Below are positions 24,406 through 48,360 of a DNA stretch of 64,000 nt, in pieces. Under the pieces are notes generated by a model that ran no database searches, was not told where the DNA came from, and worked only from the letters and a program-made list of their open reading frames with translations. The DNA is from Lysobacterales bacterium (GTDB lineage: Bacteria; Pseudomonadota; Gammaproteobacteria; Xanthomonadales; Rhodanobacteraceae). A program made the position numbers and the translations under genes. Within the stretch, counting starts at the first letter, position 1. Each line of letters begins with the position of its first letter. Where the stretch lies: assembly GCA_046347015.1 (NCBI GenBank), contig JAXMHA010000005.1:65747-129746 (forward strand), given 5' to 3'.

Positions 24406-25041
24406 ATGCCCTGTCGAATCCTGCTTGCCCTCGCCTTCGCCCTGCCCGCATTCGCACTGGCGAATGCCGGCGCCGCCGAGAAACCAGCCGCAAAGCCCGC
24501 GATGAAGGCCGAAAAGGCGCCGGCCAAGCCTGCCGCTCCGGCCACCAATCCGCGCGTGCTGATCAAGACCAGCCTCGGCGACATCACCGTCGAGCTGTTC
24601 CCGGAGAAGGCGCCGAAGACGGTCGACAACTTCCTGCAGTACGTCAAGAGCGGCTTTTACGACGGCACGGTGTTCCACCGCGTCATCAACAACTTCATGA
24701 TCCAGGGCGGCGGATTCACGCCCGCGCTCAAGCAGAAGCCGACGCGCCCGCCGATCGTCAACGAAGCGAACAATGGCCTCAGCAACGTGCTGGGGACGCT
24801 GGCAATGGCGCGCACGGCCGACCCCGATTCGGCGAGCGCGCAGTTCTTCATCAACGTCGTCGACAACCCGCGCCTGGACTGGAGCGCGACCAGCCCCGGT
24901 TACTGCGTGTTCGGCAAGGTCGTGTCCGGCATGGACGTCGTCGACAAGATCAAGGCGGTGCCGACCGGCGCGCAGGGCCCGTTCCGCGGCGACGTGCCGC
25001 TGACACCGGTCGTGATCCAGAAGGTCGAAGTCCTGCCCTGA
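24406..25041 (+). CDS. ppiA: Periplasmic cyclophilin-type peptidyl-prolyl isomerase
   Basis: ATG 24406 preceded by GGAGA. Signal peptide [36 protein letters not shown] and SAQFFIN. Confidence 0.9.
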
Positions 25042-25062
25042 CGTCCCCGTCGCCTCGCGGCG

Positions 25063-25785
25063 ATGACGACGCTCTTCATTTCGGACCTGCACCTCGATGG
25101 GAGCCGAGCCGACATCGCGCGGCTCGCCGTCGATTTCATCCGGAGGGGGGCGGCGGGAGCCGCCGCGCTCTTCATCCTCGGCGATCTGTTCGAGGCATGG
25201 ACGGGCGACGACAGCGCGGACGACACGGCCGTTGCCATCGCCGGTGCGCTGGCCACCCTGCACGAATCCGGCGTGCCGGTGTATTTCATCCACGGCAACC
25301 GCGATTTTCTGCTCGGCGACGCGCTCGCACGGCACGCGCGCCTGACGGTGCTGCCGGACGCCAGCATCGTCGACATCGAAGGCACGCCCACCTTGCTGAT
25401 GCACGGCGATGCGCTGTGCACGGATGACGTCGCGTACCAGAAATTCCGCGCCGAGGTGCGTGAACCGGCATGGCAACGCCGGTTCCTCTCGCGGCCGCCG
25501 GATGACCGCCGCGAGTTTGCCGGCGCGGCGCGCGCCGAAAGCCGTCGCTACGGGGCACAACTCGACGCGGCGCTCGCCGACGTCAGCCCCGATGCCGTCA
25601 GTGCGGCCATGCGCCGCGCGGGCGTCACGCGCCTGATCCACGGCCACACCCACCGCCCCGCGATCCATCGCTTCACGCTGGACGGCCAGCCAGCCGAACG
25701 GATCGTCCTCGGCGACTGGTACACGCAAGGCAGCGTGTTGACGATCGGTCCCGGAGAAGCCACCCTCCGCACGCTGGCCGTTTGA
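25063..25785 (+). CDS. lpxH: UDP-2,3-diacylglucosamine diphosphatase
   Basis: TLFISDLHLD, ILGDLFEAWTGDD, HGNRDFLLG, LMHGDALCTDD, LIHGHTHRP. Follows a ppi gene as in E. coli. Confidence 0.92.
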   Translation: MTTLFISDLHLDGSRADIARLAVDFIRRGAAGAAALFILGDLFEAWTGDDSADDTAVAIAGALATLHESGVPVYFIHGNRDFLLGDALARHARLTVLPDASIVDIEGTPTLLMHGDALCTDDVAYQKFRAEVREPAWQRRFLSRPPDDRREFAGAARAESRRYGAQLDAALADVSPDAVSAAMRRAGVTRLIHGHTHRPAIHRFTLDGQPAERIVLGDWYTQGSVLTIGPGEATLRTLAV

Positions 25786-25988
25786 TCGTCTTCCGGTCGT
25801 CGAAGGTCACGGCCAACCCGGCGACTGCGACGATCCGGGACCGCGCATCGTCTGGTTCCCTCGTCACTCGCGCCAGAGCGCTACCGGCCGCCATGACGAT
25901 CTGCACATGCGGCCTGCATGCGGTGCAAGGGACGATGACTGCCGTTCCGCCTTGCGGCGGCACCAATCCATCCAGGCTGGGGAGATCG

Positions 25989-28149
25989 ATGATGTCGAAG
26001 CTGTTTGCGGTCGCGCTTGGCGCGGCCACGTTGCTGTCAGCACCCTTGGGATTTGCCGGTGACGGGGATCCCGACCCGGATTTCGGCAACGGTGGTGTCG
26101 CCTACCTCGCCCTCGACGGCATCGAAGGCCATGAGCTGCGTGCCAAAACGGTCATCGCGCTGGCCGGCGGCAAGCTGTTGTTCGCGGGCTCGCGCAACCT
26201 GCTGATCCCCGGCAATCCGGACCCGGCCATGCGCGCAATGATGGCGCGCATGAATCCCGACGGATCACCGGATCTCGGCTTCGGTGCCGACCCGAACAAC
26301 CCGGGGATCCTGGTGCTGCCGTCGATCTCGGCCACCGCGATCCAGACCATCGAAGCCATGCGCACGCTGGACGATGGCACGATCCTCGTCGCCGGCTATG
26401 CCTACGTGTTCGGCCCGCTGTCGGGATTCATCGGCAAGTTCGACGCCGACGGCCACCCCGACGACGCCTTCGGGCAGGACGGCATCCTGCAGATCCCGTC
26501 GGTCTTCCTGCACGCGATGGCGATCGACAGCCAGGGCCGGATCGTCGTCGCCGGTGAGCAGTCGATCAACGGACTGTCGCAGGGCTACATCGCACGCCTG
26601 TCCACCGACGGCACCTTCGACCCGACGTTCGGGCCCGCCGACGACGGAACCGTGCTGTTGACGCCGGAAGTCGCCGGCGACAACGCCTACATCTCGGCGA
26701 TCGCACTGGACGACGCCGATGGCATCGTGGCCGGTGGCATTTACGAGGACAACCAGAACTTCCTGTCGCAATTCTCCCTGGCCCACGTCGACGCCGACGG
26801 CAACCTCGTCACGACCTTTGCCGACGACGGCTGGCGGCGCTTCACGGTACCGGGCGACACATCCATGTTCAACGGCATCGACGTCCTGACGCGCACGCCC
26901 GATGGCCTGATCGTCATTGGCGCGCATCACGACGATGGACAGGGCGGCACGGTCGTCGTGCTTGGCCAACTGGACGCGAACGGCAACGACGACGCGGCGT
27001 TCGGCGATCCGTCGACACCGGGCTACCGGAACCTCGTCGTCGTGCCGGACGCCTGGAACCGTTACGCGAGTGCCGTCGTGCGGCAGGACGACGGCAAGTT
27101 CCTCGTTTCCGTCAGCTACGCGACACCGGCGAAGGAAGACTTCGTGGTGGCCCGCGCCGGCACCGACGGTGCGCCGGACCCGGACTTCGGCACCGCTGGC
27201 ATCGTCGATTTCGACGCCGCTCCCGGCGGCGTCTACAGCAACCTCACCGCGATGACGTTGCAGGACGGCAAGCCGATCCTCGCGGGCTCGGCCAAGCGTG
27301 ATCCGGGATCATCACTGGTCGACCTCGCGGCCGTGCGCCTCGGAAAACGGCCCGCGGGCGACGACCTCGTGTTCGCAGGACGGCTTCGACGGCACGTCGG
27401 CTGAACCGGGCGTCAGCACCTATGACGACCTCGCGGAGGGTTTCCTCGGCACCGACTACACGTACAACGGCATCTACTACCACGACGCGAACGGCATCGG
27501 CGGCATCTTCCCCGATGGCTCGACGTTCACGGCGGACGACGTCGGTGACCAGTTCATCATCGAGGACGCCGGCGTGCTGTGGAACGATTTCCCGGATTTC
27601 GGCAGCTTCCCGAACGTGCTGACGTTCGGCACCGCCTACGTGCCCGGCGACAACTTCTCGATCGGCGCGCTGGTGCAGGCGTCGATGGACCTGCCGGAAC
27701 CGGCGAACGCGGTCAGCATGGACCTCGCCTTCTACGAGAACGGCCCGTGGGGCGGCATCGAGCTGCACCTCGACGCCTTCCTCGGCGACACGTTGGTGGG
27801 TTCGGATTCCCTGACCATCGCCAACGGCGGCGGCCGCGACGACGTCACGACGACCACGTTTTCGGTCGCGGGCGTCACGTTCGACAAGTTGCGCCTGTAC
27901 GCAACGTACGGCGGGCAGCCGTCCGCGCCGCGGGTGATGATCGACGATCTCACGCTCACGCCGGCCGCGGCGCCAGAGGTCCCTGCTCGCGCGGGCTGGT
28001 TGCAGCAGTCCCGCGGTCGGCCCGCGCCATGGCTGGGGTTCCGCAGCACGGGCGGACCCCGGGGAAGTCCTCAGGATTGGCTCCGAACCGACGGGTCGAA
28101 CCCGTTCTCGAAGATGATGTCGTCGACCGCAGGGCGAACACCTCGTTGA
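25989..28149 (+). pseudogene. Secreted delta-60-type repeat beta-propeller protein with a C-terminal domain, split by a frameshift near 27378 as assembled
   Basis: ATG 25989: MMSKLFAVALGAATLLSAPLGFA (signal peptide). Seven D(G/A)xxDxxFGxxG repeats. Frame 1 stops at 27404. The continuation (DGFDGTSAEPGVSTYDDL...MIDDLTLTP) lies in ORF 27298..28149. The true 3' end is uncertain. Confidence 0.7.
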
Positions 28150-29179
28150 CGGACAATGGCGTGGTGCCGTCGACGTCGTAACCACCGGTGGCGAAGATCT
28201 TCCCGGTCGCGGGATCGACGTCGGCCGCAAGTTTCGCCGCGCCGCGTTCATGGCCGGGCCGAGGCCCCACGCGTCGGACGTCGGGTCGTAAACGTCCACT
28301 TCGTTGCTCGGGTTGGGTGACGTCCGCCGCCGCCCAGGACCCAGATGCTGCCATCCGTCTCGGTGACGGCGCGCGTCTCCGCGACGACGCGCGGGATTGT
28401 CGCCACGGACTGGATCTCATCCGCGGACGGGCTGTACAGGAACGACGTGTCGGTGTCGTCGATCGTCGTGCCGTCCCAGATCGAACCGCCGAAGCTGTAG
28501 ATGAAGCCGCCCGAGGCTGCCATCGGAATGTAGCCGAGACCCTGCGGCAATGTCGCCGTCATTTCGGTCCAGCGGGTGCCGTCCGCCGCATCCGGATCGA
28601 ACTGCCAGATCGTGTTCAACATCGCCGTGCTGATCTGGAAGCCACCGAACACATAGAGCTTGTTGTCGAGCACCGCCGCCCCACCCGGCAACGTGATCGT
28701 GTCGGCATCGCCCGGCCAGGGGTCGGACGCGAGCGTCGTGACCGTGCCGGCCACCGGATCGATGACGTTCACGGCGGCACTCGCGGTCGTTGCACCAGCC
28801 GCGGACCCACCGACAACGACGATCGACGGTGTGCCACCGACGTCGAGCACGCCACCGACCATGTTGTTGACCTGGTTGTCCGGAAACGTCAGCGTGGTCG
28901 CCGACCAGGCATCCGCTGTCGGGTCATAGGCGGTGACGGTCTGGAAGTCGGATCCGGCCGTGTCCGTTTCGCGCCCACCGAGGACATAGAACTGGCCGTT
29001 CGCCGGAAAGAACATTCCGAGCGACCGCACCACGGTGGTCGGAAAGTCAGTCGCGAGCGACCACGATCCCGGAGGCGTGCAGGTTCCACTCCGGGGTCCG
29101 GTTGCCGCACCGGCGACGGAAGGCAATGACAGCGCCGCGACGATGCCGGCAGCGAGGACCGACGAGAAACACCCTTCAT
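28071..29179 (-). pseudogene. Secreted Kelch-repeat protein, readable only with four frame switches as assembled
   Basis: AAAGGAG then ATG 29179 (MKGV..), then signal peptide FSSVLAAGIVAALSLPSVAGA in the next frame. Kelch-like blades (GQFYVLGG, NKLYVFGG, GFIYSFGG, GSIWVLGGG, GKIFATGGYD) are spread over ORFs 28248..29126, 27244..28299 and 27956..28420. The ending is ...DDIIFENGFDPSVRSQS* (stop 28071-28073). Confidence 0.7.
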
Positions 29180-29529
29180 GACCGCACTCCTTTCAGCGTC
29201 GAGGTTGCGGTCTTCTGATTCCCGCACGCGAGCGTAGTCCGGTCGAGGTTGGTCTGCACGCGGGGGCGTCCCTGCAAGTCTGCATCTGCAGGTAATCGTT
29301 CCTATTCGCGAACGCGCATCACGTCAGCTGGACCGAGCTCGCGAATCCCAGCATCGCAGAACCCAACACTGCGCGATTCGTTGCTCAACGCCGTCGGGGC
29401 TCATTGCATTCACCCCGGCCCGCCAGAGGCCGCGCCTTCGCAGGTCGGGACGGGCGCAGCGAATCCCGACATCAGCTCAACCCATTCTGGCGCAAGGCCG
29501 GAAGCATCTTCCCCCCAACCTTGCCCGAG

Positions 29530-30915
29530 CTACTTTGCGATGGTCTTTTGCGGCCCCGACAACGCCTGTCGCACGCCGGTCTTGTACATGACGGCGATGT
29601 AGTACCAGTACGGTGTCCTTTCACGGCCGTCGTATCGCGCCACTGGTATTCGACGGGACCTGTGCCGTTGTCGATCGCGGCGACCATGTGATCGCCAACG
29701 ACCTTGAACGGTCCATCCGCGGAATCGCCGCGGAACACCTGATAGCCGTGCACGTTGCCCTGGTGCAACCTGCCATTTCAGGAGCGGCCCCTCGCCCGGC
29801 GGCGTCGGCATCACCTTCAATGGAGGTTGAATCCGGCGGTTTCGGCATCTCGACTTTCTGGATGCCCGGAGGCGGCTTCGGCGATACCCGACGGCGCGGG
29901 CGGCGCGGCGAAGATGCCGAAGATCGACAGCGTCAGGTGCTTCTTCTGCTCCGGCAGCGGCACGTCGAGGTCGTACTTGAAGAACCCCGGTGCTTGATTC
30001 TTGCCGACATCGATCACCAATGCACGGCAGCCGCGGCGCGCAGGATCGCAATCACGGAGTTGAAAGTCGCGTCGAGGGTGCGGCCGATCAGGTCCGATGC
30101 ACGGTCACTTTGCGCTGATCGTGAACGCCTTGCCCTGAGTGTCGACCAAGTCAACGGACAACGCGCGTTGTGCAGCCCACGCCACGGTGCCGAACCAGTG
30201 TGGATTCTTCTCCGGTCCGATTTCACCCTTCACCGATCCGGTCACCTGCACCCAGGCTTCCGGTTGCTGCGGGCTGTCGATCGCAAGCTTCACCATCTCG
30301 TCGAACGGACCCCACGGCGCGTCTTCGCCAACCTCGGTGGTGACCGACCGGCCATCGGCACCCATCGCGGCATGCAGGAACGGCGGAGCGGACAGGATCT
30401 TCGTGATGCGGAAGCCCGGGGTCAGCTGCTCGCCAGCGCTGGCCGTTTCGTTACCGGTCCCGCAGCGACGTCGACATCACCGAAGGTGATTCGCGGATGC
30501 GGATCGTCGAGCACCGACATCACGAACCCGCTGGCCCGCGCGAACATCGGCCTGGCGCCGGCGCCGTCGATGCGCGGAACGTCCAAGCGATCTCGCCGGC
30601 GATGTTGCGCGTGTTGACGTGCGTCGCGGTGATCTTCGCTTGCGTGCGGCTCCAACGTCAGATGCGACGGCGTCGCGGAGTTGTGGTCCGTCGCACCGGA
30701 ACGATGTCCAGCGTCAACGGCGTGTCGCCCGCGTTCGTCAACGTGAACGCACAGCCGGCGGGCGCGAACGCATACACCTCGCCGAAATCGCAGTCCTGCA
30801 CCTTCAGCGGACTTGCTGCCGGTGTCGCGGCATGCAGCGGTCCCGCAAACGACAATGATGCGGTGAGCACACCAAAGGTGTAAGTCAGCGTCGGGACATA
30901 CCGAATCAACGACAT
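29530..30915 (-). pseudogene. Secreted protein with DUF1573-like (ASH/PapD-like) domain(s) and an FN3-like C-terminus, fragmented over about 9 ORF pieces
   Basis: MSLIRYVPTLTYTFGVLTASLSFAGPLHA (signal peptide). DCDFGEVYAFAPAGCAFTLTNAGDTPLTL (DUF1573-like). C-terminus: GNVHGYQVFRGDSADGPFKVV...YQWRDTTAVKG / YWYYIAVMYKTGVRQALSGPQ (FN3-like). Pieces: 30658..30951, 30422..30655, 30105..30365, 30014..30226, 29817..30020, 29621..29848, 29472..29768, 29530..30051. Confidence 0.6.
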
Positions 30916-30988
30916 TGCAGCGACCTCGCGCAGACTGCCGGCAGCATACAACGACCCGACAGTGACCGGCGCACTGGAACTACCGCAA

Positions 30989-31006
30989 GTGATACAGTAG
31001 TATCAC
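30989..31006 (+). promoter_or_regulatory. Perfect inverted repeat GTGATAC-N4-GTATCAC immediately upstream of the antitoxin ATG (candidate TA operator)
   Basis: gtgatacagtagtatcac at 30989-31006, with the ATG at 31010. It contains a TAGTAT -10-like hexamer (30998-31003) and there is no Shine-Dalgarno sequence. Function is inferred. Confidence 0.45.
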
Positions 31007-31009
31007 TCC

Positions 31010-31285
31010 ATGCGCACCGAACTCGTGACGACACTCAAGCGGCAGGCCACGGCCCTGCTCGCGGACATCGAGCGCGACAGGAAACCGATCCTGATCACCC
31101 AACATGGCCTGCCCGGTGCGTATCTGGTCGACGTGGAAACCTGGCAGTTGCAACAGGAGCGCATGGCCATCCTCGGTGGAATCGCACGCGGAGAAATGGC
31201 TATCGCGGAGGCCGCACGCTCACGCAAGCGCAGACTGAGAAACGGCTGGCGCAGTGGTCGAGCAGTTCGACCGAGCCAGCGATAG
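31010..31285 (+). pseudogene. Phd/YefM-family antitoxin (N-terminal domain intact, C-terminus out of frame)
   Basis: MRTELVTTLKRQATALLADIERDRKPILITQHGLPGAYLVDVETWQ is a Phd/YefM signature. The expected tail GRTLTQAQTEKRLAQW lies in the -1 frame from about 31210. Confidence 0.65.
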
Positions 31286-31557
31286 CAGACCTCGAAGCCA
31301 TCGCCGAATACATTTCTCTGACAACCCTGCCGCTGCACGCGCGCCGATACAGCGCATCGTGCAGCATGTTCGCCAGCTTTCCGGACCAACTGGAAAGCGG
31401 CGTCCGACCTCGCGAGCTGGGTCCGCGCAGCCGCTACAGGCAGATCGTCGAGCCACCCTGCCGCGTCTTCTACCGCTTCGATGGCCGAGCGGCCTACATC
31501 GTCCACGTGATGCGCGCGGAGCGGATACTCAGACGCGGCGTCTTGACGCGACGCTAG
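31256..31557 (+). pseudogene. ParE/RelE-superfamily toxin, two compensating frame switches, no own start codon
   Basis: PAIADLEAIAEYIS (frame 1), DNPAAARAPIQRIVQHVRQL (frame 0, ORF 31254..), FPDQLESGVRPRELGPRSRYRQIVEPPCRVFYRFDGRAAYIVHVMRAERIL (frame 1, ORF 31366..31557). Together these form a ParE-like sequence. Confidence 0.6.
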
Positions 31558-31801
31558 TACCCGGACGACACGTCGTTGCGAAACGGTCGAAGCTGTCGAG
31601 TCTGCTCCCATCGATACCGAGCGCGACGATACTCGCGACGACCGCGGCTGCGATCGACGCGGCCGAACGAAAATGAAGCATCTCCGGACCTCCAAGACGC
31701 GAATCGGAGAAGGCAACAGCGCGCCAACCCCGCGGGGTCGTTTCGCAGCCTATCGAACGTGCGCATCGCCGTGTCCGCGATTGCGTGGCCACAGCAACCC
31801 C

Positions 31802-32209
31802 ATGCAACCTGCCGCGCCGAACTCCCCTTGTCGAACTGTTCGTAGCCCGGCTCCTGAACGGGTGCCGGATCTGCTGGCGGTGTACCGGTTCGGTTCGTTC
31901 GACACGCCGGCTCAACGACCCGACAGCGACATCGACCTCGGACTGCTCGGTGAGGCCCCGCTCGAACCGGTGTTCCTTTTCGACCTCGCCGGTGAGCCCC
32001 GACGCTCGCCCTCCGCGAAGTGGACCTGATCGACCTCATCACGTGCTCCACCGTGCTGCGCGCACAAGTCGTCGCGACAGGCGAGCGGGTGTTCTGCCGC
32101 GACCGCTATCGCTGCGAGTCATTCGCCACCACGGCGTTCAGCCGCTACGCCCACCTCAACGAGGCGCGACGGGCGATCCTCGACGACATTGCCGCGCGAG
32201 CTGCGGTGA
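31802..32209 (+). pseudogene. MNT-type nucleotidyltransferase antitoxin (MntA-like), frameshifted
   Basis: LLAVYRFGSFDTPAQRPDSDIDLGLL (GS...DxD, 31892-31936) in ORF 31673..32029. The continuation REVDLIDLITCSTVLRAQVVATGERVF is in ORF 32020... ATG 31802 is a possible start. Confidence 0.6.
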
Positions 32210-32650
32210 TTGGCCGACGGCATCGGCCTCGGCAAGCTGGCGATCATCGAGCGGCGCCTCGCGCGCATACGCGAGGAGCAGCACCGGGGCACGCAACCGA
32301 GCTGGCGACGAACCTGACGCGGCAGGACGCGATCGTGCCGAACCTGCAGCGCGCCTGCTGTGAAGCGCGATCGACCGCGCCAAGCAAACCGTCCGAATGC
32401 GCAACTCTGGTCTGCCGCAGGACGCGCGCGATGCCTTCACGCTGCTGGAGGGTGCTTGTTCGATCGACACCGACAATGCAGCGCGGATGCGCGCGATGGT
32501 CGGTTTCCGCAATGTCGCCGTGCATCGCTATCGGGACCTCAGCCTGCCGACCCTGCGCGCGATACGGGACACGCGCGATCGGCGACTTCACCGCGTTCGC
32601 CAAGCGGGGCGGCTGGCTGACAGGACATCCACGTCGGCCATACCGCCCCT
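32210..32650 (+). pseudogene. HEPN (DUF86/HepT-like) toxin, at least three frame switches; 3' end approximate
   Basis: TTG 32210 right after TGA gives LADGIGLGKLAIIERRLARIREE. Then ELATNLTRQDAIVPNLQRAC. Then ORF 32397.. has LPQDARDAFTLLEGACSIDTDNAARMRAMVGFRNVAVHRY, with the Rx4H motif RNVAVH at 32508-32525. Confidence 0.6.
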
Positions 32651-32757
32651 TGGGCCTGAAGCGACGCTGCCAATCCGCAGGCACGATGCACGCCCTGCGG
32701 GCATCGCGTCCAACGTTACCCTTTCCCGTTCTCACGCGAAGGCGGAAGCTCTGACGC

Positions 32758-32788
32758 AAAGAAAAGCCCGGCCGGAGCCGGGCTTTTC
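32758..32788. terminator. Bidirectional rho-independent terminator
   Basis: AAAGAAAAGCCCGGC-CGGA-GCCGGGCTTTTCG: perfect 8-bp GC stem flanked by an A-run and a T-run. It lies 29 nt after the stop of the minus-strand secreted-protein gene. Confidence 0.8.
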
Positions 32789-32816
32789 GTGTTGCGGATC
32801 GCGCGACTGGCGTCGA

Positions 32817-33311
32817 TCAGTTGATCTGGAACTCCTGCAGCGTGACCGGAAGCGGGTCCGGGGTCGTGAAGGTCAACACGCCGTTCGCAGCCGGCCCACT
32901 CCGCAGCGGCACCGGTGATCGCCAACCAGTACGGTGTCGACGGTGCCGTGATCCCCGCCAAACTGATGCCTGAGCCAACGGCTGCGGTTGCACCAATGAC
33001 ACCGTTGTCGGTTCCCGCCGAGCAGGCGTTCAACAGGTACATCGCGAAGAACTGAAAGCCGGCAGTCGGAACGATCGAGCCCGTCGGAGCAGTCGTGCCG
33101 GTCGTGAACGCGGAACATGTAGTCATTCGACGGGCTAGAAGCCGCACCGTAACCACCGATCCAGTTGGTCGTGGTGGTGGTAATGGCGCTGAACGTGCCG
33201 TTCGCCGTCAGCGGAACTGACTCCGCGCAACTACCGCCGGGGCTGCCTGTGCGGAACGGCAAACCCGCCAATGGCGAGTGCCGCAATCAGGGCTGTGCAG
33301 AGCTTCTTCAT
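32817..33311 (-). pseudogene. Small secreted protein A (about 165 aa if reconstructed), no recognisable family, three frame switches
   Basis: GGAG then ATG 33311 gives MKKLCTALIAALAIGGFAVP (signal peptide). Body in ORFs 32873..33286 and 32716..33156. Tail ...PAANGVLTFTTPDPLPVTLQEFQIN* in ORF 32817..33002. Confidence 0.5.
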
Positions 33312-33351
33312 CAGTGTGTCACTCCGTAGCGATTGAACAAGGGACGCGTTG

Positions 33352-34074
33352 TTATATCAGAAACCAATGAACGTCTGGCGGCGCGAGTCGAACTGGTCCA
33401 AGCCGACGGGCATGTCCGTTTCGATTTGCGACGAAACCTGGCGCGGCATTCGACAAGCCAAGGAATGCCGTATCAATAGTCTGCGTGTTGCTGAAGGTCG
33501 TAACGCTCACGTCCGGCGAGGCTTCAACATTGTTGTTGACCCACATGCTGAAATGCGGCGTACCACTTACAGCACCGGTGTCATAGTCAAACTCGACGTA
33601 GTTCGTGCCAGCCGAAAGTGGAAGAAATCGATGTGACTCCACTCTGAATCTGCCGGATTCTGAACAATGTAGGTAATTCCCGATCCGCCGCCGCTGTCAC
33701 CAACGACGCCGAGGACTATCGGCGAAGTGAGTGCACCCGCTTGCTGATGCTGAAAACGCCGATGGAGTCGACGAGTCCGAGGTTGGTCAAGTTATCGGCG
33801 TCAATAATGAACTGCACACGATAGCGCGGTTCGGCAGCCGGCTGTCGTCCTCGACCACGGCCTGCGACGAGGCGTCACCGGTAAGCGTCGAGTCCATGCG
33901 GCACGGCGTTCCGGCGTAGCCACCCGCAGCGATCACCGCGGTGCCGCCCAACGCATTGACCGCCGTCCACGGCGGAACCGGGCTGGCCGGGCAACCGGCG
34001 AGCGCACTGCCAGCAAAGCCGAAACCCGCAAGACCGAGCAGGGCCAACGAAAGGACTTTTGTCTTCGCAGTCAT
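33352..34074 (-). pseudogene. Small secreted protein B (about 240 aa if reconstructed), no recognisable family, three to four frame switches
   Basis: GGAG then ATG 34074 gives MTAKTKVLSLALLGLAGFGFAGSALAGC (signal peptide or lipobox-like). Pieces: ...QAVVEDDS / PAAEPRYRVQFIIDADNLTNLGLVDSIGVFSIS / QQAGALTSPIVLGVVGDSGGGSGITYIVQNPADSEWSHIDFFHF / LSAGTNYVEFDYDTGAVSGTPHFSMWVNNN... (ORF 33352..33642). Confidence 0.5.
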
Positions 34075-34390
34075 GGAAATCTCCGGTGGTTGTCCGGGCG
34101 GGCTGCAGCGCCCCTCCCCAGGGTAAGTGTCGGTTAACCAAGCCCGATCCGCGCGGACCTTAACGGGATCTTGCCCCGCTGTCAACACGGTTTCGGCGTG
34201 GGCCTGGTCCGAATGTGCCTTGTTCGACAGTTGCCCCGGCTGCAACGGGCGCCCCTGCCGGCCATCGGCGGATACGGCATCGCCTCCGGCCCACGAAGCC
34301 ATAGACGCGCGGAGGGGTCGAAACCGGACACAGGGCTCGGGGGCCCGAGTCATCGGCCACGTTGGGCTGGCGCTGTTGGGATTCTGAAGC

Positions 34391-34780
34391 TCACCCCGAC
34401 CTGCGGTCGCCCTCGGCGCGCTCGTCGTCTGCTGCCGGGTTGCCCCCAAGCCGCCCCAGCTCGTCCTCGAGGATCGCGAGTTTCTGCGTCAGCCGCCGCA
34501 ACCGGCGTTCCTGCCGCGAGCGGTCGATGTCGAGCTTCAGCAGCCGGATCAGGATCAGCGACACGCCGACGATGATCGGCAGCACTGGCGCGTACGAAAT
34601 GCCGGTCAGGTGGCCCAGCCACTCGACCAGCGACGGAAACACGCCGAGGGCGAATGTCGCCGCCGCGACGCCGAACCACCACAGCGCATACGGCCCGTGC
34701 AGGTGGTCGCGGCGGACGAGGAACAGGATCGCGCCGGCCAGCACGATGCCGATGACGGCGGAAGTGATTTGTGCGGTCAT
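34391..34780 (-). CDS. DUF2304 family small membrane protein
   Basis: ATG 34780: MTAQITSAVIGIVLAGAILFLVRRDHLHGPYALWWFGVAATFALGVFPSLVEWLGHLTGISYAPV...LTQKLAILEDEL matches the remembered DUF2304 pattern. ATGA overlap with the GT2 stop. Confidence 0.8.
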   Translation of the reverse strand: MTAQITSAVIGIVLAGAILFLVRRDHLHGPYALWWFGVAAATFALGVFPSLVEWLGHLTGISYAPVLPIIVGVSLILIRLLKLDIDRSRQERRLRRLTQKLAILEDELGRLGGNPAADDERAEGDRRSG

Positions 34781-35559
34781 GATGGGTGGGGTGCCCGATG
34801 CGAAGGTGCCGGCGAGGCCTCGAACCGCGCGAGGCACAGCACGGTCGTCTGCGCCATGTAGCGGGCGACCACGGGCCACGACGCGAACACACGCGAATGG
34901 CCGGCCCGGCGCGGTTGCATCGGCACCGGCGTCTCGACCAGCAAATAGCCGCTGCGCGCCAGCAGGATCAGCACGCCGACGTCCTGGTAGTCCAGCAGGC
35001 TCGCCGCCGGTGAGGCGAGCAATTCCACCGCGCGCGGTCCGTACAGGCGCAGCCCTGACGTGAAGTCGTGCAGCGGCAGCCGCGTCAATGCACGCAGGTA
35101 CCGCCACGCCACTCGCTTGGCGCGGCTCAGCCGCTCGACGCAGGTGCCGATGACGACGTCGGCTTCCGTCCGCGCCTGGGCATCGAACAACGCCGGCAGG
35201 GTTTCCGGGAGGTGCTGGCCGTCGGCGTCGAGCGTGACGACGCTGGTGCAGCCGTGCCGCGCCGCATAGCGGATGCCGGTCTGGGTCGCGCCCCACGCGC
35301 CGAGGCCGAGCGGCAGCGTCAGCACCCGGGCACCCGCCGCGCGCGCCGCCGCGGCGGTGTCGTCACGGCTCGCGTCGTCGACGACGAGGACCGGGGCGCC
35401 CAGCACACGGCGCGCCCCGGTCACAACCTGGCCAATGGTCGGCGCTTCGTCACGCGCCGGGATGACGACGAGGCAGCGGCGCGGATCGAGCTGGGGCGTT
35501 CCGGGGTCGGGCACGGGAAGGATGTGCGCGGAGGGAGTGCGATTCTGGGCACGGCCCAT
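34777..35559 (-). CDS. Family-2 glycosyltransferase, polyprenyl-phosphate sugar synthase type (Dpm1/GtrB/ArnC-like)
   Basis: ATG 35559: ...CLVVIPARDEAPTIGQVV...LVVDDASRDDT...VVTLDADGQHLPE...DFTSGLRLY. Soluble about 260-aa form without C-terminal TM helices. Confidence 0.8.
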   Translation of the reverse strand: MGRAQNRTPSAHILPVPDPGTPQLDPRRCLVVIPARDEAPTIGQVVTGARRVLGAPVLVVDDASRDDTAAAARAAGARVLTLPLGLGAWGATQTGIRYAARHGCTSVVTLDADGQHLPETLPALFDAQARTEADVVIGTCVERLSRAKRVAWRYLRALTRLPLHDFTSGLRLYGPRAVELLASPAASLLDYQDVGVLILLARSGYLLVETPVPMQPRRAGHSRVFASWPVVARYMAQTTVLCLARFEASPAPSHRAPHPS

Positions 35560-35615
35560 GCGTTCCGCAAGCGCCGTCTGTCGCCTGGGTCCTTTTCGCG
35601 TAGCATCGCGCCGAC

Positions 35616-36764
35616 ATGCGCATCCTGCACGTCGGCAAGTTCTACCCTCCCGAACGCGGCGGCATCGAGCAGTACACGGCGGCCCTCGCGCGGTTCGCCG
35701 CCAGCGCCGGGGACGCCGTTGCCGTGTTGGCGCACCAGCGGCCCGGCGTGCGGCGAACCACCGTGGAAACGATCGACGGCGTCGCCGTGACGCGGGTCGG
35801 CTGCCTCGGCGCCTTCGCCTACGCCCCGCTGGCGCCGGCGTTCCCGGTCGTGGCGCGGCGCGTGGTCGCCTCTTTCCGGCCCGACCTGATCCACATCCAC
35901 GTGCCGAACCCTTCGGCATTCGCGTTGCTGGCGCTGCCAGGCGCGCGACGCGTGCCCTGGATCGTCCAATGGCAGGCCGACATCGACGCCGATGCGGTCG
36001 GCGCGGGGATGCGGGCGTTGTATTGCGTGTACCGGCCGTTCGAGACGGCGCTGCTGCGGCGCTCCCGCGCCATCATCGCGAGCTCGACCGCCTACGCCGA
36101 CGCGAGCCGGCCCCTCGCCCGCTGGCGCGACAAGGTCCACGTGGTGCCGCTTGGCATCGGCCCCTCGGCTGCGCCGCGTGCGGGTGGATCCGCATGCTGG
36201 CCCCAGCGACCTGGAATGAAGCTGCTCGCGGTCGGACGGTTGTCACACTACAAGGGCTTCGACGTACTGTTCGATGCGCTCACACATTGCGCCGATGCGA
36301 ACCTGCTGCTGGTCGGTACCGGCGAATGCGAAGCGGCGCTGCGCGCGCAGGTCGACACGCTCGGACTCGGCGGGCGGGTCGTGATGGCGGGCGATCTCTC
36401 CGACGCAAGCCTCGCCGCCGCGTACGCCAGTTCCGATGCGTTCGTGCTGCCGTCGCTGAACCGCAGCGAGTCGTTCGGGCTCGTGCTGCTCGAAGCGATG
36501 CGTGCCGGCCTGCCGGTCATCGCGAGCGACATTCCCGGATCCGGCGTCGGCAGCATCGTCGTCGAGGGCGTGACCGGACGACTGGTGCCGCCGGGCGATG
36601 CGCGGGCACTGGCCGGAGCAATTGCGGCGCTTGCGGATCCCGTTTCGCGCACGGCGCTCGGCCACGCGGGCTACGCGCGCTGGCTGGAACGGTTCACCTT
36701 GGAACGCTCGGCGCGCGCCGTGCGTGAAATCCAATGCCGAATCGTGGCAGCCGAAAGCACCTGA
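35616..36764 (+). CDS. Family-4 (GT-B) glycosyltransferase
   Basis: MRILHVGKFYPPERGGIEQY..., C-terminal EsFGLVLLEAMRAGLPVIASD motif. Divergent from the GT2 gene by 56 nt. Confidence 0.82.
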   Translation: MRILHVGKFYPPERGGIEQYTAALARFAASAGDAVAVLAHQRPGVRRTTVETIDGVAVTRVGCLGAFAYAPLAPAFPVVARRVVASFRPDLIHIHVPNPSAFALLALPGARRVPWIVQWQADIDADAVGAGMRALYCVYRPFETALLRRSRAIIASSTAYADASRPLARWRDKVHVVPLGIGPSAAPRAGGSACWPQRPGMKLLAVGRLSHYKGFDVLFDALTHCADANLLLVGTGECEAALRAQVDTLGLGGRVVMAGDLSDASLAAAYASSDAFVLPSLNRSESFGLVLLEAMRAGLPVIASDIPGSGVGSIVVEGVTGRLVPPGDARALAGAIAALADPVSRTALGHAGYARWLERFTLERSARAVREIQCRIVAAEST

Positions 36765-36788
36765 ACGGTTGCATCGCGGGGCGTCGTT

Positions 36789-38204
36789 TCAAGCCTTAGA
36801 GGAAGCTGCGGAATCGGACCTCAGCAGCAACGCCAGCAACACGACCGTCGCCGGGACGATCTGCAACACCAGCCGGTTTGCGCTGGTGTAGTCACGTGCC
36901 CAAGCCGCGGCGCCGGTGAAGAAGAACAACACGGCGAGGAAGGCGAGGAACAACAGCAGCGCAAGTCCGAGGAAGCGGGCCGCTGGCACGCGGCCGAACA
37001 CGCGCCAACGCACGATCGCGACCAGCGGCGCGAGATACCACAGGAGATGCCAGTTCGGCAGCGTGAACAGTCCCGCCAGGATTTCCTGCCCGACCGGGTG
37101 GAACGCGAGCGGATAGCGGCCGAGCGCCGGGATGTCGACCAGACCCCAATGGATTCGCACGAGACCGAGTTCCGGCAGCGGCAGCTCGAATCCGCCCGTC
37201 ACGAGTCCGATGACGATGAGGCCGACCGCGGCCAGCGCGAACGGCCAGCGCGACCGCCGCGGCAGGCGTTCGAGCAGGATCACCACCGCCAGCGCGAGCA
37301 GCCAGAACGCGCCTTCGAGCTTGATCATCGGCAGCACCAGCGCAAGTCCGGCGCACAGCAGCAACTGCCCCGTCGCCCCGGTTTCGATGAACCGCATCCA
37401 CGCGAGCGCAGCGAGCCCGAGCACCAGCGCGACCCACAGATCGGCATAGCCCGCGAGCGCGACGTGGGCATCGAGCAGCGGCAACGACATCAGCGCGTAG
37501 ACCAGCGCCAGCGCGGCGAGCGCGGCATGTCCAGCGGCGCGCCAGTATCCGTACGCGGCGAACGCGAACGCGACCAGCGCCCCGCTCCACGCGAGCGCAA
37601 TGCGCGGCCCCTCGAACGCGTGCGCCGCACTCGCGAACCACAACTCGATCCACGCCAGGAGGTCGGGATAGGCCGAGGCCGGCATCGTCAACGCCGTCGC
37701 ATGCCGGCCGGCCAGCCATTCCTTCATCGGTACCCACGCTTCGGCATGGCCCAGCCCGAACCACGTCTTCGCCTTGAACGCCCACGTCGACCACGCGTCC
37801 CACGGGAACAGTGGCCGCAGCGAGGCTTCCCACGCGAGCAGGCCGACACGGACTGCGATCAGCGCGACGAGCAGTCCGAACACGATCCGGACCAGCATGT
37901 CCGGGGAGTCGGCGATTTGATCGACCCGCGTACCCCGATGGCGCCAGGCCCGGAACGCCGTCACCACCCACGCCACGACTCCAACCAGCACCAGCCACGG
38001 CGCGGTGCGCGCGAAGGTTTCCCGCGTCGCATCGGTCGCACAAAGCGGCGCGAGCAGGCCGGCCAGCAGGATGCCGACCAGCCAGCCGGCGCCCAGCGTC
38101 GCCGCACCATCTCCGCGACTCGTCCCGGCGCCCGCGGCGAGCCGCCAAACGCCGGCGCCGGCGAACAACGGAAGCGCCCACGCGAGGACGTACTCAGCGC
38201 CCAT
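36789..38204 (-). CDS. Polytopic inner-membrane protein (about 12 TM, 471 aa), possible GT-C-like glycosyltransferase
   Basis: Strongly hydrophobic, helix-rich ORF with good coding composition. ATG 38204 overlaps the upstream gene by 11 nt. No motif I can assign with certainty. Confidence 0.6.
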   Translation of the reverse strand: MGAEYVLAWALPLFAGAGVWRLAAGAGTSRGDGAATLGAGWLVGILLAGLLAPLCATDATRETFARTAPWLVLVGVVAWVVTAFRAWRHRGTRVDQIADSPDMLVRIVFGLLVALIAVRVGLLAWEASLRPLFPWDAWSTWAFKAKTWFGLGHAEAWVPMKEWLAGRHATALTMPASAYPDLLAWIELWFASAAHAFEGPRIALAWSGALVAFAFAAYGYWRAAGHAALAALALVYALMSLPLLDAHVALAGYADLWVALVLGLAALAWMRFIETGATGQLLLCAGLALVLPMIKLEGAFWLLALAVVILLERLPRRSRWPFALAAVGLIVIGLVTGGFELPLPELGLVRIHWGLVDIPALGRYPLAFHPVGQEILAGLFTLPNWHLLWYLAPLVAIVRWRVFGRVPAARFLGLALLLFLAFLAVLFFFTGAAAWARDYTSANRLVLQIVPATVVLLALLLRSDSAASSKA

Positions 38205-40202: not shown

Positions 40203-41306
40203 GCGGCAAACTCGATGCCGGATGGCACGACGAGCGCCCCGTCCGCCAGCGCCACCGTCAGCGTCGGCGGGCGATACGCTGCGATGGCGCGCCAGTGTTC
40301 CCACACCGAATCGTCGATGGTCTCGTTGATGCCGGTGCCGAACACGCGGTTGAACGGGCGTTTGAACAGGTGGTAGAGGCCGAACATGAAGTGCCGGTAC
40401 GAATCGTTGGGCGTGGCGGTGACGGCAGCGGACAATGGCACGAACGGCGCCGTGAAAGCGAGACCCGCGCCGATCGCCTTGCGTTGCATCCAGGCCAGCG
40501 GCGGGTCCGGCAGCGGATCCGGACTGTGGCCCGCGCCATCCGCCGGTTCACCACCGCCGACGTCGGAATGGGATCCGGCGAACCAGCGTTGCTCGACTTC
40601 GATCTGCCCGGGCTTCATCGCCGTCGGCGACTCACCCGGCGCGAGCGACGCCGGCAGGCGCATCCACTTCGCCGGCGCGAAGTCGGCGCGATGCTCGTCC
40701 AGCGCGAGCGCCTGATACGCATACTGCACGATGCGGCTGAGCCCGGTGTCGTGGAATCGATAGCGGCTGCGGGCGAACGGAAACCAGGAAGCGACATCGG
40801 GGATGCCGAGCGCGCCCACGGTTTCCCATACGCCGATGAAGCGGATGCCGACGGTGCGGGCATGGGCCGCGCGCCAGGCGGCGGCCGCGGGTCCGCGGGC
40901 GCAGGCCGTTCCGGTAGAAATTCCACGCTTGACCGACCGCGGCGGCGTCGACCCCGCCATGCGCATCCGGCACCATGAGCCCGCACTTGCGGATCATCCC
41001 GGCGAGACTGCGCGCGCTGTACGCGCCGCGACTGAACCCGAACGCCCAGATTTCGTCACCGTCGCGCCACTGCCCGCAAAGCCACTGGTATCCCTCCCGG
41101 ATGTTGGCCGACAGGCCGAGGCCGAACGCGCCGCCGAGCAGGTGTTCGATGCCGTGCTCGACGCCGACGCCCGGGATGTAGCAGCACAGTTGCGCGTGCC
41201 CCACGCCGTCGCTCGGCGCGATCAACCGCCAGAGGCGATCGACGTTGGTGCGTGTCGTGGCCTTGCTCCAGGTGCCGTCGAACAGGACGATCAGTCGGCG
41301 CGGCAT
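40199..41306 (-). pseudogene. DUF2235 alpha/beta-hydrolase-domain protein, one frameshift near 40905-40925 as assembled
   Basis: ATG 41306: MPRRLIVLFDGTWSKATTRTNVDRLW...IWAFGFSRGAYSARSLAGMIRKCGL...AWNFYRNG (ORF 40632..41405). It then continues as ...IRFIGVWETVGALGIPD...WFAGSHSDVGGG (ORF 40199..40966). Lies 23 nt downstream of the purF stop. Confidence 0.7.
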
Positions 41307-41328
41307 CCGGCGCTCCCGGCGGCCGGCC

Positions 41329-42804: not shown

Positions 42805-42847
42805 GGCGTCATCCGCAAGGCAATGGTTCTCTCGCGCACCGCGGTCA

Positions 42848-43393
42848 TCACTGCCGCGGATCCTTTTTCGGCGGTGGCGCGCGCAACGGTTGCGCCAGCG
42901 CCGCGACCGGTTCGAGGTATTGCGCGACTTCGGCCGGGAGGCGCGCCCCGATCCAGTGCGCGCCCGCCTCGAACTCCGGCAGGAGCCGGGAAGCCCTCCA
43001 CCACGGATCGCGCTGCAGCGGCGTGAATCCAAGCACCAGCACCACGAGCGTCACGAGGACGATGCCACGCGCCAGCCCGAACACCATGCCGAGCATCCGG
43101 TCGCTGCCGGTCAAGCCGCTGCCGGCGACGAGCATCCGCATCAGCCACGCGACCAGCGCTCCGGCCACCAGCACGGCGAGGAACACGGCGACATAACCCG
43201 TCGCGATCCGCACCGACGGAGTCGATAGGGTGCCGGACAGCCGTCCGGCAAGCGCCGGGCCGAACAGCCATGCCGCCCAGAACGCCGCCGCCCAGCACAC
43301 CAACGCCAGTACTTCGCCGATGAAACCGCGCCACAAACCCATCAGCACCGACAAGCCGAGTGTCGCGACGATCGCGTAGTCGGCCCAGTTCAT
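42848..43393 (-). CDS. cvpA: Colicin V production protein CvpA
   Basis: 181 aa: [29 protein letters not shown]..., four TM helices. Fits cvpA-purF synteny. Confidence 0.88.
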
Positions 43394-43462
43394 GGACCTC
43401 TGCGGCCTCTCGCCCGGTCCATGTCCGGCATACCCGTCCGCACTCGCGGTTCGGCGCGCACG

Positions 43463-44392: not shown

Positions 44393-44419
44393 GGCGAGCC
44401 GGCGGCGTGGACGGCGCGA

Positions 44420-45754: not shown

Positions 45755-45816
45755 CGTGATTCGATGGCTATGGTTGCCGAACCGGAATGGAACGGGCGCG
45801 ATCGATCGGGGAGCCG

Positions 45817-46497: not shown

Positions 46498-46541
46498 GGT
46501 GACGGCACGATCGGCGCGATTCAACCTCCGCGGTCGACGCT

Positions 46542-48352: not shown

Positions 48353-48360
48353 CGCGGGCC

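What the first reader, a model, noticed from the sequence alone, without database searches (positions are those of the whole stretch)
25786..34390. 8.6-kb accessory island where every gene needs +/-1 frame switches while about 55 kb of flanking genes are intact
Between lpxH (ends 25785) and the DUF2304/GT2 pair (from 34391), none of the recognisable proteins can be read in a single frame. By manual translation I count:
- 1 switch in the delta-60 propeller gene
- 4 in the Kelch gene
- at least 8 in the DUF1573/FN3-like gene
- 3 across Phd-ParE
- at least 4 across MNT-HEPN
- 3 in secreted protein A
- 3-4 in secreted protein B

That is about two dozen in about 8 kb. About 50 genes outside the island read cleanly, with only two suspected shifts (DUF2235 near 40.9 kb and the prpB-prpC insert near 61.95 kb).

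The reconstructed joins give sensible protein sequence: signal peptides, Kelch blades, the Rx4H motif and the GS..DxD motif. I saw no clear nonsense codons, only indel-type damage. Shift directions are mixed, so this is not a simple one-direction homopolymer bias. Three genes show runs of three same-direction shifts that return to the original frame.

The island also holds the lowest-GC lines of the window, about 52-57% at 33.4-33.8 kb and 29.2-29.4 kb, against the high-60s elsewhere. It has no integrase, transposase, flanking tRNA or obvious direct repeats.

Two readings are possible: a decaying horizontally acquired, defence- or adhesion-type island, or a locally mis-assembled or poorly polished strain-variable region whose genes are really intact. 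Either matters for annotation.
Basis: partly seen in the sequence, partly recalled or inferred. Interest (0 to 1): 0.7.

Follow-up and report, generated by a model that had tools for sequence, protein, structure and literature searches.

The report
Frameshifts from assembly errors, not decay
The roughly 7-kb stretch of broken genes is real in this sequence, but it is almost certainly unpolished sequencing error in a strain-variable region, because the same genes are intact in four other assemblies of the same species.

Summary
Between 27,377 and 34,234 the window carries 53 small indels. At least 36 of them break the frame of nine genes: DUF5122 propeller, Kelch, a 465-aa Ig-like protein, Phd, ParE, MNT, HepT and two secreted proteins. 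About 18 kb of flank compared base by base has only two 1-nt deletions.

The decay reading is not supported. Short-read assemblies of the same species (99.2-99.3% identical in the flanks) carry the whole island intact, in at least three further haplotypes. In four genes the window has 24 private indels, 23 of them frame-breaking. The other haplotypes have none that clearly break a frame, despite up to 180 private substitutions each.

Where the window follows one intact haplotype there are 36 indels against 73 substitutions. The compared flanks have 0 against 130. Most 1-nt indels lie outside homopolymers. No secure nonsense codon exists. Diverged genes still show dN/dS of about 0.1-0.2 in the intact frame. 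Indel density tracks haplotype divergence (rho -0.85).

Best explanation (about 0.85): consensus errors where only a few, probably long, reads covered a strain-specific haplotype. The island itself is an ordinary variable locus carrying toxin-antitoxin pairs. Interest is low, except for annotation.

The parts
25063..25785 (+). lpxH, the intact left border gene
   Evidence: 240 aa, 98.8% identical to the L008 protein in a single frame. No indels versus L008.
25992..28149 (+). DUF5122 beta-propeller gene with a C-terminal domain of about 220 aa, split by one extra base near 27377
   Evidence: The intact L008/L009 protein (661 aa) aligns at aa 1-462 in frame +3 and aa 451-658 in frame +1. There is a single 1-nt insertion versus L008. 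Removing one base restores '...DDLVFADGFDG...'. The source record calls the 3' part as a separate 283-aa protein, P0217.
28077..29180 (-). Kelch-repeat secreted protein gene with 4 frame-breaking deletions (29168, 28327, 28229, and 7 nt at 28128)
   Evidence: DNA alignment to L007, which encodes the intact 368-aa P0001 (95% aa identity). All four indels are private to the window; L008, L009, L014 and L007 have none. The truncated product P0205 equals the window ORF, including its out-of-frame tail.
28330..29160 (.). Stretch of about 840 nt with no indels inside the Kelch gene
   Evidence: No indel lies between 28327 and 29168. In the two 300-nt bins that lie wholly inside this stretch, the window is at least 93% and 97% identical to every other haplotype. 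The chance of such a gap at the island's mean indel density is about 0.002 (my own calculation).
29530..30915 (-). 465-aa signal-peptide protein with a weak DUF1573 / HYDIN-VesB Ig-like domain, carrying 11 private frame-breaking indels
   Evidence: A family of intact proteins of about 455 aa (P0121-P0204). The window has 11 private indels, all of length not divisible by 3. L008 has 0, L014 has 0, and L009 has one 9-nt indel. Substitutions versus L008 are 95 synonymous to 35 non-synonymous, with 0 stops. The Pfam hits are weak and below threshold.
31010..31557 (+). Phd antitoxin (31010 to about 31266) and ParE toxin (about 31254 to 31557), with 5 one-base indels
   Evidence: Alignment to L008, where Phd (85 aa) and ParE (101 aa) are intact. 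Deletions lie at about 31211, 31258, 31270 and 31320, and an insertion at 31384. The intact versions give Pfam Phd 1-71/74 and ParE 1-88/89.
31802..32620 (+). MNT nucleotidyltransferase antitoxin (31802 to about 32214, 3 indels) and HepT/HEPN toxin (32210-32620, 4 indels)
   Evidence: tblastn of the L008 proteins jumps between frames: MNT +2 then +1, HepT +2 then +1 then +3. One 320-nt stretch has no substitutions but one non-homopolymer deletion. Intact L008 proteins match HepT 1-120/120 and Polbeta 5-92/93.
32817..33311 (-). 163-aa secreted protein gene ('secreted protein A'), with 3 frame-breaking indels and 1 in-frame indel
   Evidence: tblastn runs through three frames. Private changes in the window are 4 indels against 5 substitutions. 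L008 and L014 have 0 indels.
33357..34074 (-). 239-aa secreted protein gene ('secreted protein B'), with 5 frame-breaking indels
   Evidence: Private changes in the window are 5 indels (none divisible by 3) against 3 substitutions. L008 and L014 have 0, and L009 has one 3-nt indel. Synonymous to non-synonymous is 18:4.
34391..34780 (-). DUF2304, the intact right border gene
   Evidence: 129 aa, 100% identical to the L008 protein. There are no indels from 34300 to 40749.
40892..40904 (-). Two 1-nt deletions 12 nt apart (TT to T, CCCC to CCC) in the core DUF2235/Tle1-like gene (40199-41306)
   Evidence: Both are absent from four independent assemblies: L010 from an NCBI MAG and L011-L013 from three Logan runs. 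These are otherwise 99.1-99.4% identical to the window.

Best explanation
The frameshifts are consensus errors, not mutations.

Shown: the locus between lpxH and DUF2304 is a strain-variable region of a Rhodanobacteraceae-like species, and several haplotypes exist that are 57-99% identical to one another.

Inferred: the source assembly threaded one minor haplotype through this region. Only a few error-prone reads, most likely long reads, supported that haplotype. Reads from the other strains were too divergent to align and polish it. Raw-read-type errors of about 1 indel per 130 bp therefore survived there. The flanks, and the one internal stretch shared by all strains, were polished clean by the pooled coverage.

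The true genes are intact: a secreted DUF5122 propeller, a Kelch protein, a 465-aa Ig-like protein, Phd-ParE, MNT-HepT and two small secreted proteins.
For: 1. The whole island is intact in the same species. L008/L010 (NCBI MAG GCA_964593445.1) is 99.2-99.3% identical to the window over 36904-50200, and carries all nine genes at full length. L009, L014 and L007 are further intact haplotypes.
2. The indels are private to the window. In four coding sequences the window has 24 private indels, 23 of length not divisible by 3. L008, L014 and L007 have none. L009 has five (9, 3, 8, 3 and 3 nt). The one 8-nt event sits beside two 3-nt gaps in a very divergent gene. These haplotypes carry up to 116-180 private substitutions.
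3. The ratio of indels to substitutions is abnormal. In the tract that follows the L008 haplotype (33900-30560) there are 36 indels and 73 substitutions. The compared flanks have 0 and 130 (Fisher p = 9e-13 for tract against right flank alone, 0 and 109). The binomial p is 5e-11 to 4e-5 if indels make up 10-17% of natural changes. In the 239-aa and 163-aa genes the private changes are 5 indels to 3 substitutions and 4 to 5.
4. The sequence context is random. Of 36 one-base events, 18 hit a base with no identical neighbour and 10 hit a 2-base run. This is close to a random base (0.58 and 0.31). Base usage follows composition. There are 25 deletions and 11 insertions.
5. Selection on the intact frame is still visible. 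Counted in the homologue's frame, including downstream of shifts, synonymous to non-synonymous is 95:35, 30:10, 18:4 and 21:10, giving dN/dS of about 0.07-0.2. There is no secure in-frame stop.
6. Indels per 300-nt bin fall as the window's identity to the other haplotypes rises (Spearman -0.85, p = 7e-12). An 840-nt clean stretch lies in the part of Kelch that differs least between the haplotypes.
7. The same assembly has an error-like pair of deletions in a core gene that four other assemblies contradict.
8. The truncated products occur on only one contig, a 195,968-bp NCBI contig that appears to be the window's own source.
9. The mechanism is documented. Long-read consensus needs depth, and localised heterogeneity within a population leaves data unpolishable (bioRxiv 10.1101/2021.08.23.457338). 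Nanopore bins below about 40-fold coverage need short-read polishing (PMC9262707).
Against: - No reads, coverage figures or assembly method are available, and the source record is hidden. The low-coverage long-read mechanism is therefore inferred.
- If the source was a short-read assembly, this mechanism would not apply.
- The GT2 region (34.6-35.5 kb) is only 88-94% identical among haplotypes yet has no indels. The link between divergence and error is therefore a threshold, not a proportion.
- Accessory genes are also where real decay would be expected, so location alone does not discriminate.
- In the four short genes nearest to L008 (163-aa, HepT, MNT, Phd), substitutions are not biased towards synonymous sites: 7 synonymous, 9 non-synonymous, 8 multi-hit codons. 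Random error and neutral drift would both produce this.
- No intact copy of the window's exact haplotype was found.
Confidence: 0.85

Rival explanations
1. Real decay. In this particular strain the accessory island has been released from selection, and all nine genes have accumulated genuine frameshift mutations, so it is a pseudogenised island.
For: - The damage is confined to dispensable, strain-variable genes, while core flanks are clean.
- Substitutions in the 163-aa, HepT, MNT and Phd genes are not biased towards synonymous sites.
- The MNT stop codon also differs from L008.
- No read data exist to exclude this.
Against: - It needs an indel-to-substitution ratio of about 1:2 to 1:1. Spontaneous bacterial spectra are roughly 1:5 to 1:15 (my own knowledge of mutation-accumulation studies).
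- 78% of one-base indels lie in runs of 2 bases or fewer. Natural indels are mainly homopolymer slippage (own knowledge).
- There are no secure nonsense codons, large deletions or IS insertions.
- About 5 hits per gene implies long neutrality, yet the tract is only 2.2% diverged from an intact haplotype, against 0.9-1.7% in the flanks.
- dN/dS is still about 0.1-0.2 in the diverged genes.
- No other dataset shares any of the indels.
- The assembly shows a similar double deletion in a core gene.
Confidence: 0.1
2. Collapsed-haplotype consensus. The assembler or polisher merged reads from two or more co-occurring haplotypes into one path, and the indels arise from conflicting alignments rather than from low coverage of one haplotype.
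For: - At least four haplotypes exist in nature.
- The short-read MAG splits exactly here into two alternative contigs.
- The window is a mosaic of L008-like, L009-like and other tracts.
- Some indels sit beside small clusters of substitutions.
Against: - At variable sites the window follows one haplotype in long clean runs of hundreds of consecutive informative sites, not a fine-grained mixture.
- Indels are as dense inside a tract that is about 98% identical to L008 as elsewhere.
- This is a variant of the artefact explanation and leads to the same practical conclusion.
Confidence: 0.04
3. A local burst of genuine frameshift mutagenesis, for example error-prone polymerase synthesis during break repair or recombinational import of the island.
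For: The indels are confined to about 7 kb that is also a recombination mosaic. DinB-type polymerases are known to make -1 frameshifts (own knowledge).
Against: - Both +1 and -1 events occur, along with 2- to 11-nt events, and there is no G:C-run preference.
- No known process yields about 1 indel per 130 bp over 7 kb without a matching excess of substitutions.
- All nine genes, both toxins included, would have to be dead at once in a viable lineage.
- Nothing distinguishes this positively from sequencing error.
Confidence: 0.01

Closest known systems
Residual indel errors in long-read (Nanopore or PacBio) assemblies at low-coverage or strain-heterogeneous loci. This is the problem addressed by the IDEEL test, short-read polishing and proovframe.
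   Same: - Errors are dominated by 1-2-nt indels, with more deletions than insertions.
- Genes are fragmented into frame-shifted pieces.
- There are no nonsense codons.
- The errors are confined to where polishing depth is lacking.
- The genes are intact in short-read assemblies.
   Different: - The technology and coverage of the source are not known to me.
- The errors are mostly outside homopolymers. That looks like raw-read error, or consensus from 1-3 reads, rather than the homopolymer bias of well-covered Nanopore consensus.
- The localisation is unusually sharp: about 7 kb inside an otherwise clean 64 kb.
Natural pseudogene decay in bacteria, such as the degraded islands and genes of host-restricted or recently niche-shifted lineages
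   Same: Several adjacent accessory genes are unreadable in a single frame, and core genes nearby are intact.
   Different: The indel-to-substitution ratio, the non-slippage context, the absence of stops, large deletions and IS elements, the preserved purifying-selection signal and the privacy of every indel all differ from natural decay.
Chromosomal hypervariable loci that carry toxin-antitoxin modules and secreted or surface proteins
   Same: The position is fixed between conserved genes (lpxH and DUF2304/GT2). Several diverged haplotypes exist, with kb-scale mosaicism and swapping of TA cargo: Phd-ParE and MNT-HepT, or BrnT plus a 66-aa gene beside it (likely its antitoxin, not tested), or remnants.
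   Different: There is no integrase, tRNA or flanking repeat, so this is not a classical mobile island. Function and selective cause were not tested.

Membership tests
Sequencing or consensus artefact (unpolished indel errors) | The same locus reads intact in independent assemblies of the same species | tested here: met
   L008/L010, L009, L014 and L007 all encode full-length proteins. The flanks are 99.2-99.3% identical to the window.
Sequencing or consensus artefact (unpolished indel errors) | The differences are dominated by small indels private to this assembly, out of proportion to substitutions | tested here: met
   The window has 24 private indels (23 not divisible by 3). The other haplotypes have 0-5 in total, nearly all divisible by 3. 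Counts are 36 indels to 73 substitutions in the tract, and 0 to 130 in the flanks.
Sequencing or consensus artefact (unpolished indel errors) | The error positions are random with respect to sequence context and codon structure | tested here: met
   The run-length distribution of affected bases is close to that of a random base, and base usage follows composition. Indels also occur in intergenic parts of the island.
Sequencing or consensus artefact (unpolished indel errors) | Read pile-ups contradict the consensus, or coverage is low at the affected stretch | not testable with these tools
   No reads are available, and the source record is not retrievable. Indirect support comes from indel density tracking haplotype divergence, rho = -0.85.
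Decaying (pseudogenised) genomic island | Relaxed selection: dN/dS near 1 and nonsense codons alongside the frameshifts | tested here: not met
   dN/dS is about 0.07-0.2 in sec239, the 465-aa gene, Kelch and the propeller. There are 0 secure stops, although about 2-3% of random substitutions would create one. The four short genes have too few substitutions to be informative.
Decaying (pseudogenised) genomic island | A natural mutational spectrum: slippage-prone contexts, a spread of deletion sizes, and a substitution excess relative to indels | tested here: not met
   78% of one-base indels lie in runs of 2 or fewer. 36 of the 53 events are 1 nt. The indel share of changes is 0.33.
Decaying (pseudogenised) genomic island | The same lesions are seen in independent samples of the lineage | tested here: not met
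   The exact truncated products are absent from other contigs. P0205 and P0217 occur on one contig only. This is weak evidence, because coverage of this strain in databases is unknown.
Mobile genomic island (horizontally acquired) | An integrase or transposase, a tRNA or other attachment site, and flanking direct repeats | tested here: not met
   The six-frame Pfam scan finds no such domain. The only tRNA is at 9370. There is no meaningful flanking repeat. The locus is occupied in every strain found.
Type II toxin-antitoxin pair Phd/YefM-ParE | An adjacent small antitoxin and toxin with full-length Pfam domains | tested here: met
   This holds for the intact haplotype in L008: Phd 1-71/74 (42 bits) and ParE 1-88/89 (66 bits), with the genes overlapping. 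In the window they match only in fragments across frames.
MNT-HepT (HEPN) toxin-antitoxin pair | A nucleotidyltransferase antitoxin followed by an overlapping HepT toxin with full-length domains | tested here: met
   In L008, Polbeta matches 5-92/93 and HepT 1-120/120, and the genes overlap by 8 nt. The window's copies are fragmented. The Rx4H and GSxxDxD motifs were not re-checked individually.

The most novel reading that the evidence does not exclude
The indels are real. A single lineage suffered a local burst of mixed +1/-1 frameshift mutagenesis across about 7 kb of a recombining accessory locus, for example through error-prone synthesis during recombinational import. This killed nine genes, including two toxin-antitoxin pairs, with almost no accompanying substitutions.
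Probability: 0.03. Interest if true: 0.6.

Novelty: not a real feature. Interest (0 to 1): 0.1.

Why it matters
- **Annotation.** As deposited, nine genes would be called as pseudogenes or as spurious fragments. The source record already holds a 260-aa Kelch fragment and a 283-aa propeller fragment. This inflates pseudogene and singleton counts and could prompt a false 'decaying defence island' story.
- **Diagnostic recipe without reads.** Find intact haplotypes of the same species. Count private indels against private substitutions. Check homopolymer context. Check dN/dS in the corrected frame.
- **Biology.** What remains is modest: a fixed chromosomal locus in a Rhodanobacteraceae-like species that is highly polymorphic and exchanges toxin-antitoxin cargo.

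Tried and rejected
- **Species-representative genomes.** The scan for relatives of the propeller found only 26-34% identical proteins in other phyla, so it gave no synteny.
- **Exact-protein look-ups.** Look-ups for lpxH, the truncated propeller, truncated Phd, truncated Kelch (by coordinates and as P0205) and prpB all returned nothing. The source contig could not be retrieved. The 50-64 kb and 1-25 kb flanks could be checked only with the Viterbi frame scan.
- **Whole-frame Pfam scans.** I re-ran them with stops replaced by X.
- **Fine-scale haplotype mixing.** I tested whether the window mixes two haplotypes site by site, as a collapsed consensus would. Site patterns show long clean tracts, so this is not the main cause.
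- **Homopolymer-driven error.** I tested the classic polished-Nanopore or 454 signature. Enrichment is only slight: 22% of events lie in runs of 3 or more, against 11% expected.
- **Clustering of indels.** I checked for clustering beyond a Poisson process. About 6-7 gaps of 20 nt or less are seen, against about 7 expected (my own calculation). No extra clustering was found.
- **Possible frameshifts at 7.46 and 8.03 kb.** The Viterbi scan flagged these. They are ordinary overlapping gene boundaries: panB/folK and folK/pcnB.
- **Last homologue search.** It found no intact protein of the window's exact propeller haplotype spanning 27377.
- **Metagenome and viral collection scans.** These were not used. 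JGI sources held no close relative of the island genes.

Full report

Yes. The window is about 68% GC, so long spurious ORFs occur in every frame. I therefore used homology rather than ORF length.

Phd and a partial Polbeta/MNT (profile 11-52 of 93) lie in one frame. ParE lies in another. HepT (profile 40-105 of 120) and DUF5122 lie in a third. Kelch is on the minus strand.

**Intact relatives.**

The 292-aa Kelch ORF has an intact 368-aa relative, P0001, at 95% identity. It is encoded on a Logan contig, L007.

The base-level alignment shows four frame-breaking deletions in the window. One follows the ATG directly. One lies in a G/C run. One is TTT to TT. One is a 7-nt deletion near the 3' end.

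A reconstructed query for the DUF1573-like gene found a family of intact proteins of about 455 aa. The two best hits led to NCBI MAG GCA_964593445.1:
- L008 is the end of a 63.6-kb contig. It carries the whole locus in the same gene order, with every gene full length. The order is lpxH, 661-aa DUF5122 propeller, 368-aa Kelch, 465-aa protein, Phd, MNT, HepT, 163-aa protein, 239-aa protein, DUF2304, GT2. ParE is present and intact but was not called.
- L009 is an 8.8-kb contig from the same MAG and carries a second haplotype.
- L014 is a MEGAHIT contig from ENA and carries a fourth haplotype.

**How the window compares.**

The flanks are 99.2-99.3% identical to this MAG with essentially no gaps. 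The 36904-50200 match has 2 gaps and the 24990-27965 match has 1, whereas the match covering the island (29530-36958) has 51 gap openings.

I count 53 small indels between 27377 and 34234. At least 36 break the frame of a coding sequence:

| Gene | Frame-breaking indels |
|---|---|
| Propeller | 1 |
| Kelch | 4 |
| 465-aa gene | 11 |
| Phd-ParE | 5 |
| MNT | 3 |
| HepT | 4 |
| 163-aa gene | 3 |
| 239-aa gene | 5 |

The only error was treating ParE as less damaged than it is.

Outside the island, the Viterbi frame scan and the alignments leave only two sites. One is the pair of 1-nt deletions at 40892/40904 in DUF2235. The other is a possible unresolved site near 61.95 kb. No tRNA, mobility gene or flanking repeat is present.

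**What the locus really is.**

Site patterns show the window is a kb-scale mosaic:
- It is L008-like from about 33.9 to 30.56 kb.
- It is L009-like at about 34.1-33.9, 30.55-30.25 and 29.8-28.7 kb.
- It is unlike L008 or L009 at 30.25-29.83 kb and 28.7-27.3 kb. Over 27.4-28.0 kb it is 97-99% identical to its closest haplotype, which must be L014 because L008 and L009 are only about 92-96% there.

L008 and L009 are only 57-90% identical to each other over much of the island. The toxin-antitoxin cargo also differs between haplotypes:
- L008 has Phd-ParE and MNT-HepT.
- L009 has MNT with a 58-aa remnant.
- L014 has BrnT plus a 66-aa gene beside it (likely its antitoxin, not tested) and a HepT remnant.

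So this is a fixed chromosomal hypervariable locus, present in every strain found. It is not a mobile insertion.

**Error or decay?**

Five independent lines point to error.

1. *Privacy of the indels.* In four coding sequences the window has 24 private indels, 23 of them frame-breaking. L008, L014 and L007 have none. L009 has five, of 9, 3, 8, 3 and 3 nt. This holds although those haplotypes have up to 116-180 private substitutions.

2. *Ratio of indels to substitutions.*
   - In the L008-like tract there are 36 indels to 73 substitutions.
   - The compared flanks have 0 to 130 (Fisher p = 9e-13 for the tract against the right flank alone, 0 to 109).
   - Flank-level strain divergence (0.9-1.7%) explains about 30-56 of the 73.
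   - The excess is therefore about one substitution per indel or fewer.
   - From my own knowledge, mutation-accumulation studies put natural spectra near 1 indel per 5-15 substitutions.
   - In the MNT gene a 320-nt run has no substitution but one deletion.

3. *Sequence context.* Half of the one-base indels affect a base with no identical neighbour, and 78% lie in runs of two or fewer. This matches a random base. Deletions outnumber insertions 25 to 11. This looks like stochastic read error, not slippage.

4. *Selection.* Substitutions separating the window from intact haplotypes were counted in the homologue's frame, including downstream of the shifts. They are strongly synonymous in the diverged genes: 95:35, 30:10, 18:4 and 21:10. 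There is no secure stop codon.

5. *Location.* Indel counts per 300-nt bin correlate with how far the window differs from the other haplotypes (rho = -0.85). An 840-nt clean stretch sits in the central part of Kelch, where the window stays at least 93-97% identical to every other haplotype.

In addition, the assembly carries two deletions 12 nt apart in a core gene. Four other assemblies contradict them. The truncated products exist on one contig only, the window's own 195,968-bp NCBI contig.

**Mechanism (inferred).**

- Long-read assemblers build a contig path from individual reads and then polish it with whatever reads align.
- In a metagenome, or any mixed population, the shared flanks receive the pooled depth of all strains.
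- A strain-specific haplotype that is 10-40% diverged from the dominant ones is polished only by its own few reads.
- Raw-read-type errors of about 1% then remain over a stretch about as long as one read, here 6.9 kb.
- This limitation is described for long-read metagenomics in bioRxiv 10.1101/2021.08.23.457338. PMC9262707 gives a coverage threshold of about 40-fold for Nanopore.

I could not verify the technology or the coverage.

**Caveats.**

- The moderately diverged GT2 region is clean.
- The few substitutions in the four short genes are not biased towards synonymous sites.
- Real decay would also be expected in accessory genes.

I put the artefact explanations at about 0.89 in total, real decay at about 0.10, and an exotic local frameshift mutagenesis at about 0.01-0.03.

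**Verdict.**

As a biological finding it is not a real feature, and interest is low. The practical consequence is that nine genes, plus DUF2235, should be frame-corrected or flagged in annotation.

Noticed in passing
window 40892-40904 (in the gene at 40199-41306, minus strand): There are two 1-nt deletions 12 nt apart (TT to T, CCCC to CCC) in the core DUF2235/T6SS Tle1-like gene. Four independent assemblies that are 99.1-99.4% identical all have the intact version, so this is a further likely consensus error outside the island.
   Followed up: yes
window 61686-62281, minus strand: Two small ORFs (116 aa, membrane-like, and 92 aa) sit between prpB (62287-63180) and prpC. The frame scan places a same-strand frame change at 61967, with the upstream stop 36 nt away. 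This may be one gene split by another indel. No relative could be fetched to check.
   Followed up: partly
window 27.3-34.2 kb; L008, L009, L014, L007: The locus is hypervariable in the population. There are at least four haplotypes, kb-scale mosaicism, and different toxin-antitoxin cargo: Phd-ParE with MNT-HepT; MNT with a 58-aa remnant; or BrnT plus a 66-aa gene beside it (likely its antitoxin, not tested) and a 79-aa HepT remnant.
   Followed up: partly
window 24990 and 36904-36958; L008 3847-3946: Both contigs of the short-read MAG (L008 and L009) end at exactly window position 24990. L008 also has a 100-N gap flanked by a duplicated 55-nt overlap. These are signs of assembly-graph branching around this locus in another sample.
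   Followed up: no
window about 32214-32216: The MNT stop codon TGA of L008 reads CGA in the window, through a TT to CC change that also alters codon 2 of HepT. It could be natural variation or error.
   Followed up: no
window 27380-27970 (C-terminal domain of the propeller): This domain of about 220 aa, with no Pfam match, is widespread in Rhodanobacteraceae-type metagenome proteins. It occurs as stand-alone proteins of 221-250 aa and fused to Kelch proteins of about 575 aa.
   Followed up: no
window 37047-38279 (L008 gene call of 411 aa): The 411-aa gene called on this strand in the MAG record shows 3 synonymous to 14 non-synonymous differences. My codon-usage scan prefers the opposite strand. 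L014 has a 495-aa gene on that opposite strand, so the 411-aa call is probably on the wrong strand.
   Followed up: no
window 34600-35500 (GT2 gene): The haplotypes are only 88-94% identical here, yet the window has no indels. If errors depend on read recruitment, the cut-off lies below about 88% identity.
   Followed up: no
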